A stretch of 64,000 nucleotides of DNA, taken from UHGV virus genome UHGV-0351052, one strand, 5' to 3'. The position numbers were made by a program, and so were the translations under genes. The DNA is from a virus. The first letter of the stretch is position 1; the number at the start of each line of letters is the position of its first letter. Below, piece after piece: positions 39,344 to 42,129 of the stretch. A model generated the notes under the pieces. That model searched no databases and was not told the origin of the DNA. It saw nothing but the letters and a program-made list of their open reading frames with translations.

Positions 39344-39526
39344 TTATTTTGCCCAGGGAGCCCAGGGCGGAGGGTCAAGATGGTATGAAGCTAGTTCTTC
39401 TAGAAGAGCATCTGGGGCTTCAATTCCATAATTCTGTAATACTATACGGTACTCTTTCTTATAATCACTAGAATCATTCTGGATATTCGTAGAATGATTA
39501 TCTTCTAACATCTCAAATAAATCCAT
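39344..39526 (-). CDS. hypothetical protein (60 aa)
   Basis: ORF track. Confidence 0.35.
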   Translation of the reverse strand: MDLFEMLEDNHSTNIQNDSSDYKKEYRIVLQNYGIEAPDALLEELASYHLDPPPWAPWAK

Positions 39527-39534
39527 ATTAATTC

Positions 39535-40005
39535 CTAGCGATAAAAACCAAAATAACGATTAGCTTCAATAATCTTTCTTTCTTCTTCGGACATTCTCCA
39601 GCGTAGTCCAACATCAAAATGAGCCCAGACCATCTTAACAAATGCATTTATATCTTTAATATCTTCAATAATGAATGTTTTACTTTTCGAAGGTTGACTC
39701 GCTAATTTAACTTTATCATCTTCAAACAGGTCAAAAAGACCATATTCATGAGCTCTTTTATAGCCTTTAATAGTTAAAGCTTCGGAAGAAGAAAACGGTG
39801 AATCAGTATTTTGTAAAATATCTTCAGTATGCTTTATAATTAGAATAATATTTTCTGGATATTTTCTTTCTTTTATATCTTTAATTAAAAAATCCGGATT
39901 TTCTGCTAAAGGAATAATCAATGAGCAATTTTTATCAAGCGTATTTACTGATTTACCTTCTTTAGACATAAATTCTATCGAATAATGTTTTGCTACTTCA
40001 ATCAT
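39535..40005 (-). CDS. hypothetical protein (156 aa; mrh position)
   Basis: ORF track; size near T4 Mrh. Confidence 0.45.
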
Positions 40006-40162
40006 GTGATTTCCTTTTGCCTACTAATGGACCGTCGGGAATTTTGTTTTCCTGGATATATTTCTCATTTTCTTCCATCATTTTACTACCAATTTTAAGA
40101 AGCAAATCCATTGCTTCATTTGCTTTAGCCTTAGCCTCTTCTAACGTCATATCTTTGTTCAT
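39998..40162 (-). CDS. small hypothetical protein (54 aa), below ORF-track cutoff
   Basis: Manual read: [54 protein letters not shown]; ATGA overlaps at both ends. Confidence 0.35.
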
Positions 40163-40362
40163 GATTTATCCCCATAGATGTCTCTCATCAATTTAAGCGC
40201 TGAGCGTTCTAATTTCTTTTCTTTCTCAGCACTAATCATTGATTTCATCCACTCTTCCGATTCGTTCTGCATTTCTTTATTTGCCTGTTCAACCCAACCA
40301 TCATCAATATACATTGAGTTTGGTCTATTGAACCATTCAAGCATCTTCTTCAGAACTTTCAT
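40159..40362 (-). CDS. hypothetical protein (67 aa)
   Basis: ORF track. Confidence 0.35.
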
Positions 40363-40834
40363 TTGTTTTACCTAAAACAATAGTAGGAGCATCGTCAAAT
40401 TCATGAATTTTTAGCAATTTTGGATTTAAATTATTCCATACATAATAAATGAAGTATGATAAAGCATCTTCACTCGCAATTATAAATTTATTTCCTTTAT
40501 CTATTTTCCAGTCATATACTGAATCGTACGAATAAAAAGATAAAGGGTTATCATTATATTGTTCTGCGCTAACATTGATGTATTCGGATTTAGTAAATGC
40601 TTCAATTGCTCTAAACGGACTATTTGGCACAGTTTCAATAATTCCGATCTTTTTAAGTTTTATTTCAGCATCTTCTGGAACTGGCATTGAAACGAAATTT
40701 TCTACGAGATACATAGGGTTACGATAACCCTTATCAATCATTACGGCTACAGTAATTGGAACATCTTTAGCAAACGACATGCTATTACTGCTAATATACA
40801 TTTCAAACAAAATCGCTTCCATAATTTTCCTCAA
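40337..40834 (-). CDS. hypothetical protein (165 aa)
   Basis: ORF track. Confidence 0.45.
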
Positions 40835-41175
40835 TCACAAGATGTAGATGAACAACTAGAATCACAAGAACTTCCACATGAATCGCCCGTCCATACATGA
40901 ACAGGAACATTAGTATCATATGAATCAGAACTAGACTGTGTATTCTGTGTGTTAGGTGATGTAGTAGGTGTTGACCAGCGCCAAGGATTTTTATAATATT
41001 CTTGGGCTTCTTCATAAGTCATAGTAACTGCTTCTACTGTTCCATCTCCCATATAAACATACTCAACTACAGTTAAAGGAAGATAGTCATTTGAAATAGG
41101 AACTACACCTTCCCCAGGAGTTGTAGAGAAAAAATCCGTAAAGAAACTTTTAAACCAATTAAAGATAAACATCAC
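40831..41175 (-). CDS. hypothetical protein (114 aa) with Cys/Ser-rich C-terminal tail
   Basis: Hydrophobic N-terminus; C-terminus [19 protein letters not shown]. Confidence 0.45.
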
Positions 41176-41384
41176 AAAAATCCTCTTTGAAATTCGACTC
41201 TTTGAAATCCACCCCAGTCAGTATATCGCATTTCAGCATTGAACTCGACTGAACCATCTGCATGCATCATGAATGAATGCGTGACGACATCACAATCCCA
41301 GCTTTTCATACCCCATTTATCAGCGATAGCTTTATCAAGAACCTTCTGGAGGTCTTCATTTGGTTTAATCCAACGATTTAACAT
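41172..41384 (-). CDS. hypothetical protein (70 aa)
   Basis: ORF track; ATGA overlap. Confidence 0.4.
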   Translation of the reverse strand: MLNRWIKPNEDLQKVLDKAIADKWGMKSWDCDVVTHSFMMHADGSVEFNAEMRYTDWGGFQRVEFQRGFL

Positions 41385-41456
41385 AGCGCTCTCCTCTATA
41401 AGATAATTTTATTATACCATACTCATTTTGGAAAGTAAACCGTTTAAATGAAAAAA

Positions 41457-41477
41457 GGACTCCCGAAGGAGTCCTTG
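41457..41477 (-). terminator. intrinsic terminator after soc (GGACTCC-CGAA-GGAGTCC)
   Basis: 7-bp GC stem with UUCG loop on minus RNA then TTTTTTCATTT. Confidence 0.5.
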
Positions 41478-41482
41478 AATTA

Positions 41483-41719
41483 TTAACCACCTATTTCTGT
41501 AGGCGTAAACATTGCAGCATTCTTAGTTTTCCAGTCAGCTGCATCAGAAACTACAGTAGAATATGCCGCCTTTTCAGAAGGAAAGGTCTGATAATGAGAA
41601 TCTGCAATACGATGCTCGTTAGAATAGATTTCAAACGGAACAGAAACTTCCATACCTTTAACTTCTTTGCCTTCACCCGCTGGATGAGTAAAGGTCTTGA
41701 TGTTAACGAAACCACCCAT
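41483..41719 (-). CDS. soc: small outer capsid protein Soc (78 aa)
   Basis: ...HYQTFPSEKAAYSTV... matches the remembered T4 Soc core. Confidence 0.8.
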   Translation of the reverse strand: MGGFVNIKTFTHPAGEGKEVKGMEVSVPFEIYSNEHRIADSHYQTFPSEKAAYSTVVSDAADWKTKNAAMFTPTEIGG

Positions 41720-41758: not shown

Positions 41759-41932
41759 TCAGTCTTCAATGAAAACTTGTGCCAGGAATTCGTGTTCATC
41801 TTGAATTTGTTTATATAAAGCCATTACAGCATTTATATTAGAGCTATCTACTTTAAGTTGATAAGCATACCACTCGTGTAAATTAATTAAAGCTTTTTGA
41901 CGTCTAATAAATTCTTCTTTGGATATTTTCAT
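41759..41932 (-). CDS. small hypothetical protein (57 aa), below ORF-track cutoff
   Basis: Manual read: MKISKEEFIRRQKALINLHEWYAYQLKVDSSNINAVMALYKQIQDEHEFLAQVFIED. Confidence 0.35.
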   Translation of the reverse strand: MKISKEEFIRRQKALINLHEWYAYQLKVDSSNINAVMALYKQIQDEHEFLAQVFIED

Positions 41933-42129
41933 TTTGAATGCTCTATAATTAATTTTAAGGCTTTTTCACTGACAAAAATTTCATCAGGACCTTCTTCTAT
42001 AACCCAATCAACTGTACGAAGCTGATTAGATAGGAGCTCGTATGTGAGCTCCTTGTCATAATTTTTAAATAGCTGGTCAATACGTTTCTTGTGGGCTTTC
42101 TTAAGTTGACGTTTATTTAAACGAGCCAT
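41929..42129 (-). CDS. hypothetical protein (66 aa)
   Basis: ORF track; occupies the soc-56 interval where T4 has segF. Confidence 0.4.
   Translation of the reverse strand: MARLNKRQLKKAHKKRIDQLFKNYDKELTYELLSNQLRTVDWVIEEGPDEIFVSEKALKLIIEHSK

What the first reader, a model, noticed from the sequence alone, without database searches (positions are those of the whole stretch)
40831..41175. Small protein with a Cys/Ser-rich C-terminal tail in the mrh-soc plastic region
The 114-aa ORF has a hydrophobic N-terminus and ends in [20 protein letters not shown] Cys/Ser/Thr-dense tail could bind metal or be a substrate for modification. The surrounding block of six small ORFs (39344-41384) has no assignable function and is the most likely place in this window for uncharacterised host-interaction genes.
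Basis: inference. Interest (0 to 1): 0.4.

Follow-up and report, generated by a model that had tools for sequence, protein, structure and literature searches.

The report
T4 mrh.1: conserved Cys-Asp tail
The ORF is the already catalogued but uncharacterised phage T4 early gene mrh.1, and its odd cysteine/serine tail is the most conserved part of a small, mostly disordered protein found across T4-like phages of enterobacteria, so it is real and probably functional, but what it does is unknown.

Summary
It is the ortholog of T4 mrh.1 (Pfam DUF7206, phrog_2031, function unknown) in a Tequatrovirus window.

Among 116 family representatives (clustered at 90% identity) from phages of Escherichia, Salmonella, Klebsiella, Enterobacter, Serratia, Cronobacter and Edwardsiella:
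- The penultimate residue is Cys in 100% and the last is Asp in 98%.
- 111 of 118 have exactly two tail Cys, each in an S-C-D unit, 4-10 residues apart.
- The 4-Cys version here is a Tequatrovirus speciality, with Tyr replaced by Cys in upstream units.

Codons vary synonymously. pN/pS is 0.11 in the tail, 0.07 in the N-domain and 0.38 in the linker.

AlphaFold gives only an N-terminal amphipathic helix and a hairpin at the invariant YMGDG turn; the tail is disordered. There is no TM segment, no modifying enzyme nearby and no structural or sequence relative outside the family.

T4 screens show an early transcript, a gene non-essential by transposon mapping, and a 'Semi-fit' call by CRISPRi-ART.

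Best reading (inferred): an accessory early protein that carries a C-terminal thiol-bearing short linear motif. Moderate interest.

The parts
40831..41172 (-). mrh.1 coding sequence (113 aa plus TGA stop at 40831-40833); ortholog of T4 mrh.1 (NP_049642 / UniProt P20706); Pfam DUF7206
   Evidence: PF23836, 3e-29, 102 bits against a cutoff of 25.6; phrog_2031
41125..41172 (-). N-terminal amphipathic, aromatic helix (aa 1-16, [16 protein letters not shown]); K8 and F15 nearly invariant in the family; possible in-plane membrane or partner-docking helix, not a TM segment
   Evidence: hydrophobic moment 0.39-0.47, KD max 0.85; helix 3-15
41095..41118 (-). PGEGVVPI motif (aa 19-26), conserved in most family members
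41017..41073 (-). Beta-hairpin (aa 34-52) with the family-invariant EYVYMGDG turn (aa 37-44 = 41041-41064); the only confidently predicted structure (pLDDT 78-88)
   Evidence: (Y40, G42, D43, G44 invariant)
40990..41016 (-). Short helix (aa 53-61) packing after the hairpin in the T4-type protein
40894..40974 (-). Disordered Ser/Thr/Asn/Gln-rich linker (aa 67-93); relaxed selection, indels, and replaced by a different basic module in other genera
   Evidence: pN/pS 0.377, indels; pLDDT < 50; linker 35-100 aa
40834..40893 (-). Conserved C-terminal tail (aa 94-113, [20 protein letters not shown]). Cys codons at 40876-40878 (C99), 40864-40866 (C103), 40852-40854 (C107) and 40837-40839 (C112); terminal Asp at 40834-40836. 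C103-D104 and C112-D113 are the family-wide S-C-D units; C99 and C107 are Tequatrovirus-specific
   Evidence: (pN/pS 0.113)
41172..41384 (-). mrh.2 (70 aa, phrog_1873, unknown function); its TGA stop overlaps the mrh.1 ATG by one base (translational coupling); present upstream of mrh.1 in 15 of 18 loci examined
41411..41439 (-). Sigma-70-type promoter-like site (TTTACT, 17 nt, TATAAT with TG extension; 10 of 12 matches) upstream of mrh.2-mrh.1; consistent with a T4 early promoter
   Evidence: a promoter is annotated at the equivalent place in phage NBG2; the mrh.1 RNA is classed 'early' in T4
41455..41476 (-). Intrinsic-terminator-like hairpin (9-bp stem, T-run) after soc, separating soc from the mrh.2-mrh.1 unit
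   Evidence: a terminator is annotated at the equivalent place in NBG2 and Marfa
40337..40822 (-). mrh (T4_MRH family), immediately downstream. Its Shine-Dalgarno GAGG overlaps the mrh.1 stop codon. An Mrh-family gene follows mrh.1 within 0-2 genes in 17 of 18 loci

Best explanation
The ORF is the T4 mrh.1 ortholog, a real, early-transcribed, non-essential accessory gene of T4-like phages of Enterobacterales.

The protein has three parts:
- A small docking module: an N-terminal amphipathic helix plus a beta-hairpin at the invariant YMGDG turn.
- A long disordered linker of variable length.
- A conserved C-terminal short linear motif made of degenerate S-(Y/C)-D-S-G units. The last two units are always S-C-D, and the final Cys-Asp carries the free carboxylate.

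My best inference is that the tail is a flexible 'thiol arm'. The two invariant Cys, with their flanking Asp carboxylates, would act chemically at a partner. They would either chelate a metal ion (their own or one in a target's active site) or act as a dithiol/disulfide pair, while the N-terminal module anchors the protein.

Shown: gene identity, family, conservation pattern, purifying selection, predicted disorder, synteny, and early RNA with a weak fitness effect in T4.

Inferred: that the cysteines act through thiol chemistry, that the free C-terminus is recognised, and that the partner is a conserved host or phage protein. The target is unknown.
For: Identity:
- Pfam DUF7206 at 102 bits, phrog_2031, and T4 annotation with synteny.

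Tail conservation:
- Of 118 representatives, 106 end in SCD, 8 in GCD and 1 in TCD, plus 1 SCN and 1 GCN. 111 have exactly 2 tail Cys, usually the only Cys in the protein.
- In the C-terminus-anchored profile, position -2 is Cys in 100%, -1 is Asp in 98% and -3 is Ser in 91%. Cys is preceded by Ser in 93% and followed by Asp in 91%.
- Mosigvirus ends in SCE.
- No member extends past the Cys-acid dyad.

Protein-level selection:
- Synonymous TGT/TGC, GAT/GAC and TCN/AGY turnover, with different stop codons and downstream context between genera.
- pN/pS is 0.113 in the tail against 0.377 in the linker.

Chemistry rather than shape:
- Cys-Cys spacing floats from 4 to 10 residues.
- Extra Cys were gained independently in Tequatrovirus (4), ESCO47-type P0056 (3) and P0123 (3), at positions that are Tyr or Ser elsewhere.
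- The last 20 residues are 95% S/D/G/C/Y, with no K, R, E, L or M.

Disorder and modularity:
- AlphaFold of both the T4-type and the 2-Cys type gives only the helix and hairpin; the tails have pLDDT below 50.
- A mosaic 164-aa variant keeps the tail despite a swapped middle.

Expression and phenotype in T4:
- RNA class 'early'; a promoter-like site and a terminator frame the unit.
- 'Semi-fit' in CRISPRi-ART while the neighbours are 'Not fit'.
Against: - No experiment addresses metal binding, redox state or partners.
- Two Cys with variable spacing and no His is not a recognised metal site. Most members would need to dimerise, or borrow ligands, to complete a tetrahedral site.
- The protein was not detected in the T4 time-course proteome, although trypsin gives only peptides of 8, 53, 4 and 48 residues.
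- Transposon mapping shows insertions at 31 of 31 TA sites tolerated, and the one condition comparison visible showed no depletion.
- The CRISPRi-ART call is below statistical significance (p 0.069).
- Invariance of Ser at -3 and Asp at -1 is equally what a purely steric docking motif would show.
Confidence: 0.4

Rival explanations
1. The tail is a purely steric docking motif. A host or phage protein recognises the extended S-C-D...S-C-D-COOH peptide and its free carboxylate, as in PDZ-like or tail-binding pockets, and the Cys is read as a small side chain without any thiol chemistry.
For: - Absolute positional conservation at the extreme C-terminus, with Ser at -3, Cys at -2 and Asp at -1.
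- Disordered context and variable linker length, both typical of short linear motifs.
Against: - Ser, of similar size, never replaces Cys at -2 (0 of 116) even though Ser makes up 45% of the tail and is one transversion away (TGY to TCY or AGY).
- Extra Cys were gained repeatedly at Tyr or Ser positions.
- No known enterobacterial tail-binding module prefers a Cys-Asp C-terminus (own knowledge, not tested).
Confidence: 0.2
2. The tail is the core of a ribosomally made, post-translationally modified peptide (lanthipeptide-like or azole-like, as in microcin B17), or another substrate for enzymatic modification of Ser, Cys or Tyr.
For: - Ser/Cys/Gly-rich composition.
- A weak hit of the T4-type tail (aa 95-109) to the FxLD lanthipeptide precursor model TIGR04363, E 0.034.
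- Leader-like N-terminal part followed by a C-terminal Cys/Ser-rich part.
Against: - The hit is 14 bits against a cutoff of 30 and is absent for 2-Cys members.
- No dehydratase, cyclase, YcaO or radical-SAM gene lies within about 6 kb in 18 loci from many genera; neighbours are soc, mrh.2, srh, mrh, modA.2 and the Mod ADP-ribosyltransferases.
- Most members have only two Cys.
- The protein is longer than typical precursors and carries a conserved folded hairpin.
Confidence: 0.08
3. The tail is a low-complexity self-association element. Its [S/G]-Y-[S/G] segments resemble those of FUS-type low-complexity domains and would drive reversible assembly or condensate formation, with the Cys incidental or stabilising through disulfides.
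For: - Non-T4 members carry 2-5 Tyr embedded in Ser/Gly (SSYSSYDSGS, GGYDPGYSS).
- Predicted disorder.
- The neighbouring Mrh forms a very large assembly in vitro (PMC8076793).
Against: - The T4-type tail has lost the Tyr residues yet is strongly constrained.
- The invariants are Cys and Asp at fixed distance from the C-terminus, not Tyr number.
- Strong negative charge in the tail disfavours self-association.
Confidence: 0.1
4. Mrh.1 is an integral membrane or secreted protein anchored by its hydrophobic N-terminus, with the Cys tail forming disulfides outside the cytoplasm.
For: Aromatic, hydrophobic first 15 residues in the T4-type protein.
Against: - The hydrophobic run is too short and is amphipathic (KD max 0.85 over 15 aa), and is interrupted by N5, K8, S9, T12 and D13.
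- Other genera have a 9-12 residue Lys-rich amphipathic helix (MINWLKNLFKTK).
- There is no signal-peptide architecture.
- Peripheral, in-plane membrane association remains possible and is compatible with the main explanation.
Confidence: 0.05
5. The ORF is not a functional gene, and the tail is a translation of a nucleotide-level signal such as the ribosome-binding region of mrh.
For: - The mrh Shine-Dalgarno overlaps the mrh.1 stop codon.
- The protein was not seen in the T4 proteome.
- The gene is non-essential.
Against: - pN/pS is 0.17 overall and 0.07-0.11 in the conserved parts.
- The tail is conserved in amino acids but not in codons, stop codon or downstream gene across genera.
- 121 homologs exist, over 500 phage records carry the T4 type, and 804 records match the VR26-type query.
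- The tryptic peptides are unsuitable for MS.
Confidence: 0.02

Closest known systems
T4 Mrh.1 / Pfam DUF7206 (PF23836) / phrog_2031
   Same: 98% identical to T4 Mrh.1; same length, same start-stop coupling with mrh.2 and same position between soc and mrh. Full-length match to the family model.
   Different: Nothing substantive. It differs from T4 by S73P and A95T. The family itself has no described function, and no paper held in the library mentions its C-terminal motif.
Flexible C-terminal dithiol 'swinging arms' of redox enzymes (for example the CX4C tail of E. coli ribonucleotide reductase R1, Cys754/Cys759); recalled from own knowledge, not tested
   Same: Two Cys a few residues apart in a disordered segment at the extreme C-terminus, with spacing tolerant of variation.
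   Different: Mrh.1 has no catalytic domain for the arm to serve. Its Cys are each followed by Asp and embedded in Ser/Gly/Tyr. No sequence similarity was found and no redox data exist.
Disordered metal-binding tails and Cys-rich metal proteins (SlyD and HypB C-terminal tails, metallothioneins); own knowledge
   Same: A disordered, acidic, Cys-containing C-terminal tail appended to a small folded unit. The Tequatrovirus version has 4 Cys in 14 residues.
   Different: There is no His, only two Cys in 111 of 118 members, no CxC or CxxC clusters, and variable spacing. No family model matches.
RiPP precursor peptides (lanthipeptides; microcin B17-type azole peptides)
   Same: A Ser/Cys/Gly-rich C-terminal segment after a longer N-terminal part; sub-threshold similarity to TIGR04363.
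   Different: Below the curated cutoff, no biosynthetic enzymes in any locus, a conserved folded hairpin, and most members carry just two Cys.
Small T4 early host-takeover proteins in the same cluster (Mrh, Srh, Srd, ModA/ModB)
   Same: Same early transcription region, same accessory and non-essential status, and conserved adjacency to an Mrh-family gene in 17 of 18 loci.
   Different: No sequence or fold relation to any of them. A link to sigma-32 or heat shock is only guilt by association.

Membership tests
DUF7206 / T4 Mrh.1 family | Score above the Pfam gathering threshold over the full model | tested here: met
   PF23836: 102.2 bits against a cutoff of 25.6, model positions 1-107 of 107; phrog_2031 at 5.5e-36
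DUF7206 / T4 Mrh.1 family | Invariant E-Y-V-Y-M-G-D-G core | tested here: met
   aa 37-44 present; Y40, G42, D43 and G44 invariant in 60 aligned members
DUF7206 / T4 Mrh.1 family | C-terminus ending in [S/G]-C-[D/N/E], with a second S-C-D unit 4-10 residues upstream | tested here: met
   The window protein ends ...[13 protein letters not shown]; family statistics
DUF7206 / T4 Mrh.1 family | Syntenic slot downstream of soc and upstream of an Mrh-family gene in a T4-like genome | tested here: met
   (Mrh downstream in 17 of 18 loci)
Metallothionein-like / Cys-cluster metal-binding proteins | Dense CxC or CxxC clusters with conserved spacing | tested here: not met
   Spacing is Cx3Cx3Cx4C here, a single pair 4-10 apart in most members, and there are no CxC or CxxC clusters
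Metallothionein-like / Cys-cluster metal-binding proteins | Stoichiometric metal binding | not testable with these tools
   Needs ICP-MS or spectroscopy on purified protein
Lanthipeptide / azole RiPP precursor | Match to a precursor family model above the curated cutoff | tested here: not met
   TIGR04363 at 14.1 bits against a cutoff of 30, E 0.034, T4-type only
Lanthipeptide / azole RiPP precursor | Co-located modifying enzymes (dehydratase/cyclase, YcaO, radical SAM) | tested here: not met
   None among the called or annotated genes within about 6 kb in loci from many genera
Lanthipeptide / azole RiPP precursor | Mass shift of the mature peptide | not testable with these tools
   Needs intact-mass MS from infected cells
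Integral membrane or secreted small protein | A hydrophobic segment of about 18-20 residues, or a signal peptide | tested here: not met
   KD mean at most 0.85 over 15 residues; the helix is amphipathic and only 9-15 residues long
C-terminal dithiol redox shuttle (RNR R1-type tail) | Two Cys no more than 10 residues apart in a flexible extreme C-terminus | tested here: met
   Spacing 4-10, last Cys at -2, tail pLDDT below 50
C-terminal dithiol redox shuttle (RNR R1-type tail) | Attached to an oxidoreductase catalytic domain that the tail re-reduces | tested here: not met
   Only a helix plus hairpin of about 60 residues; no domain hit in Pfam, NCBIfam, PDB or BFVD
Anti-phage defence or known anti-defence components | Match to a PADLOC model | tested here: not met
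   No hit at E up to 1

The most novel reading that the evidence does not exclude
The Mrh.1 family would be a new class of phage effector. It would tether itself through its N-terminal helix and hairpin, then insert a disordered C-terminal Cys-Asp-COOH 'thiol arm' into the metal or redox centre of a conserved enterobacterial (or phage) enzyme. Candidate targets include a zinc protease, or the thioredoxin/ribonucleotide-reductase system. The arm would inhibit or rewire the enzyme by thiolate-plus-carboxylate ligation or by mixed-disulfide formation. Tequatroviruses would have multiplied the warhead to four Cys.
Probability: 0.12. Interest if true: 0.75.

Novelty: new member of a known kind. Interest (0 to 1): 0.42.

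Why it matters
About a third of T4 genes still lack a function, and mrh.1 is one of only five function-unknown T4 genes flagged 'Semi-fit' by CRISPRi-ART.

An invariant Cys-Asp C-terminus on a disordered tail, conserved from T4 to Klebsiella, Serratia and Edwardsiella phages, gives a concrete handle that can be tested by mutation (C103, C112, the terminal Asp, the free carboxylate). Thiol-trapping could use it to find the partner.

The analysis also explains why standard tryptic proteomics misses the protein.

If the tail acts by thiol chemistry on a host enzyme, that would be a new mode of phage-host interference. If not, the finding is still a clean example of a conserved short linear motif in a phage ORFan.

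Tried and rejected
Literature:
- Searches for 'mrh.1', 'DUF7206', 'P20706' and 'mrh-soc intergenic region' found nothing relevant in main texts.
- Miller et al. 2003 is not held.
- The T4 structural-genomics paper covers Mrh only.

Sequence and structure searches:
- PDB sequence search with the family profile gave a best E of 0.41, and the tail alone gave nothing.
- A BFVD fold search returned only the protein's own family. The model has mean pLDDT 59, so further fold libraries were not queried.
- PADLOC found nothing. NCBIfam gave only a sub-threshold lanthipeptide hit, rejected as compositional.
- The exhaustive HMMER search of 1.84 billion representatives found 10 hits. All were family members or fragments except P0012, a repetitive 1152-aa protein at E 1.3e-4, judged spurious.

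Tail as a portable module:
- A 40-residue C-terminal profile returned nothing at E up to 10, not even the family, so it is uninformative.
- A degenerate DNA pattern scan of genomes was considered and dropped. I estimated about 40,000 chance hits.

Hypotheses rejected:
- TM or signal peptide, on hydropathy.
- Nucleotide-level explanation of the tail, on codon turnover.
- Mrh.2 as an obligate partner, because it is absent upstream in 3 of 18 loci.

Full report
**1. Observation**

- Read on the minus strand, the sequence around the start is ...AAGAGGATTTTTGTGATGTTT...
- The TGA stop of the upstream gene (41172-41384) shares its last base with an ATG at 41172.
- The T4 reference annotates a 113-aa product from that ATG. 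T4 has GTA rather than GTG one codon upstream, read from guide sequences quoted.
- The real gene is therefore 40831-41172, 113 aa, with a good Shine-Dalgarno 8 nt upstream.
- The protein ends in [20 protein letters not shown], exactly as reported.

The N-terminus ([16 protein letters not shown]) is hydrophobic but short and amphipathic. The Kyte-Doolittle mean is at most 0.85 over 15 residues and the hydrophobic moment is 0.39-0.47. It is not a transmembrane or signal segment.

**2. Identity**

The window is a Tequatrovirus, 94-97% nucleotide identity to phages SP21535, NBG2 and VEc20.

The ORF is the ortholog of T4 mrh.1 (98% identical). It belongs to Pfam DUF7206 (102 bits against a cutoff of 25.6) and phrog_2031, 'unknown function'.

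The local gene order on the minus strand is: 56, soc.2, soc.1, soc (41483-41719), mrh.2 (41172-41384), mrh.1, mrh (40337-40822), srh (40159-40362), modA.4, modA.3 (39535-40005, an Mrh paralog), modA.2, modB, modA.

**3. Is the tail conserved?**

Closely related proteins dominate the first search. IMG/VR loci and a profile search then revealed 121 family members from T4-like phages of Escherichia, Shigella, Salmonella, Yersinia, Citrobacter, Klebsiella, Enterobacter, Cronobacter, Serratia and Edwardsiella.

Among 118 non-fragment representatives:
- 106 end in SCD, 8 in GCD, 1 in TCD, 1 in SCN and 1 in GCN. The last one is truncated.
- 111 have exactly two Cys in the last 30 residues, usually the only Cys in the protein.

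Anchored at the C-terminus for 116 sequences:
- Position -2 is Cys in 100%, -1 is Asp in 98% and -3 is Ser in 91%.
- Tail cysteines are preceded by Ser in 93% and followed by Asp in 91%.
- The last two Cys are 4-10 residues apart, with modes at 6 and 8.
- S, D, G, C and Y make up 95% of the last 20 residues.

Mosigvirus orthologs end in SCE.

The tail is best described as two to four degenerate S-(Y/C)-D-S-G units, the last two always S-C-D. The final Cys-Asp is always the very end of the protein.

The 4-Cys tail in this window is a Tequatrovirus-specific derivative in which upstream S-Y-D units have become S-C-D or S-C-G. Extra Cys were also gained independently in P0056 and P0123. What is conserved is therefore the S-C-D unit and its C-terminal position, not 'the Cys spacing'.

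**4. Protein-level selection**

- Across genera the conserved tail residues use different codons (TGT/TGC, GAT/GAC, TCN/AGY). The stop codon (TGA or TAA) and the downstream gene also differ. The conservation cannot be a by-product of the mrh ribosome-binding site that overlaps the stop codon here.
- Among 12 Tequatrovirus orthologs, pN/pS is 0.066 for residues 1-66, 0.377 for the linker (67-93, which also carries indels) and 0.113 for the tail (94-113).
- A 164-aa variant (P0003, also Yersinia phage fPS-90) carries the middle module of the Dhakavirus/Gaprivervirus-type proteins inserted into a T4-type protein and still keeps the tail.

**5. Structure**

AlphaFold2 was run with a 60-sequence family alignment.
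- The window protein has mean pLDDT 58.9. It shows a helix at 3-15, a beta-hairpin at 34-40 and 46-52 around the invariant YMGDG turn (pLDDT 78-88) and a helix at 53-61. Residues 67-113 fall below 50.
- A typical 2-Cys member (P0014) shows the same pattern.
- No solved structure or viral model outside the family resembles it. The exhaustive HMMER search found nothing beyond the family.

**6. Context**

In 18 loci from many genera the gene keeps its slot after soc.
- An Mrh.2-like gene lies upstream in 15 of 18 loci.
- An Mrh-family gene lies within 0-2 genes downstream in 17 of 18, followed by modA.2 and a Mod ADP-ribosyltransferase.
- No modifying enzyme is nearby.

In the window, a terminator-like hairpin after soc (41476-41455) and a strong sigma-70-like promoter (41439-41411, 10 of 12 matches, extended -10) precede mrh.2-mrh.1. 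These match annotated signals in relatives.

**7. Published data on T4 mrh.1 (supplements only)**

- The transcript is classed 'early'. The protein was not detected, whereas Mrh.2, Mrh, Srh and ModA.4 were (PMC9697503).
- Trypsin would cut Mrh.1 into peptides of 8, 53, 4 and 48 residues, so non-detection is expected.
- CRISPRi-ART lists mrh.1 as 'Semi-fit' (fitness 0.79, K-S p 0.069). It is one of five function-unknown genes in that class, while mrh.2, mrh, srh and soc are 'Not fit' (PMC11879866).
- HIDEN-SEQ recovered insertions at 31 of 31 TA sites, so the gene is non-essential on K-12 (bioRxiv 10.1101/2025.11.20.689424).
- No paper held in the library discusses the protein or its motif.

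**8. Mechanism**

Shown: this is a real, early, accessory gene. The protein has a small conserved N-terminal module, a variable disordered linker and a strongly constrained C-terminal motif.

Inferred: the tail works as a short linear motif whose cysteines act chemically. The reasons are:
- Cys at -2 is never replaced by the abundant, similar-sized Ser.
- Cys number increases repeatedly at Tyr or Ser positions.
- Spacing is free.
- Each Cys is paired with a carboxylate.
- The motif must be at the free C-terminus.

This fits either a flexible chelating arm (metal binding, possibly in a partner's active site) or a dithiol/disulfide arm. The second is analogous to C-terminal redox tails of enzymes such as ribonucleotide reductase R1, recalled from own knowledge and not tested here.

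I put 0.4 on this thiol-arm reading. The rivals:
- Purely steric docking motif: 0.2.
- Low-complexity self-association: 0.1.
- RiPP or modification substrate: 0.08. Its only support is a 14-bit hit to TIGR04363 against a cutoff of 30, with no enzymes nearby.
- Integral membrane protein: 0.05.
- Non-gene: 0.02.

The remaining probability is for something not considered.

**9. Novelty and score**

The gene and its family are catalogued (T4 mrh.1, DUF7206), so this is a new member of a known, uncharacterised kind. The family-wide S-C-D...S-C-D-COOH motif appears not to have been described in any paper the library holds, and it turns an anonymous ORF into a testable one.

Interest is moderate at 0.42. 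The most novel reading not excluded is a phage 'thiol-arm' effector that ligates a host metal or redox centre. I give it about 0.12 probability, and it would deserve about 0.75 interest if true.

Noticed in passing
window 39344-39526 (modA.2) and equivalents in L019 3487-3672, L024 2570-2746: Many T4-like phage records label modA.2-type small ORFs 'molybdenum ABC transporter, periplasmic molybdenum-binding protein'. This looks like a name-transfer artefact from the T4 gene names modA.x to E. coli ModA. These are 55-69-aa phage proteins of Pfam Phage_T4_Y01E.
   Followed up: partly
window 39535-40005 (-): modA.3 is a full-length paralog of Mrh (PF24070, 6.4e-39; phrog_1234), so the phage carries two Mrh-family genes about 300 bp apart.
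   Followed up: partly
window 41759-42129 (-) compared with L002 4107-4781: Between soc and gene 56 the window has two small ORFs (soc.1 and soc.2 type, 57 and 66 aa), where the T4 reference carries the GIY-YIG homing endonuclease segF. This is a presence/absence polymorphism of a mobile gene.
   Followed up: no
P0003 (Escherichia phage 235Ecol030PP) and BFVD A0A449C3E1 (Yersinia phage fPS-90): A 164-aa Mrh.1 variant is an intragenic mosaic. It is a T4-type protein with the basic middle module of the Dhakavirus/Gaprivervirus-type orthologs inserted just before the conserved tail.
   Followed up: partly
window 40803-41015 (-), inside mrh.1: An alternative-frame 70-aa ORF lies within mrh.1. P0006 (141 aa, from a 175-kb NCBI genome) is a frameshifted mrh.1 that reads into this frame, which is either a sequencing error or a natural pseudogene.
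   Followed up: no
window 40822-40833 and 41170-41175 (-): Tight coupling along the operon. The mrh.2 stop and the mrh.1 start share a base (TGATG), and the mrh.1 TGA stop forms part of the mrh Shine-Dalgarno (TGAGGAAAATTATG).
   Followed up: yes
T4 Mrh.1 protein (window 40831-41172): Trypsin yields only four peptides, of 8, 53, 4 and 48 residues. This probably explains why Mrh.1 is 'NA' in the T4 time-resolved proteome although its neighbours were detected.
   Followed up: yes
L018 2308-2535 (Mosigvirus O157 typing phage 3, Mrh.2-like gene): As annotated, the Mosigvirus Mrh.2 homolog overlaps the mrh.1 start by 35 nt and ends in ...EEVVCC. Its Mrh.1 ortholog is much shorter (82 aa), lacks the first Tyr of the YMGDG core (WEYIGDG) and ends in SCE rather than SCD.
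   Followed up: no
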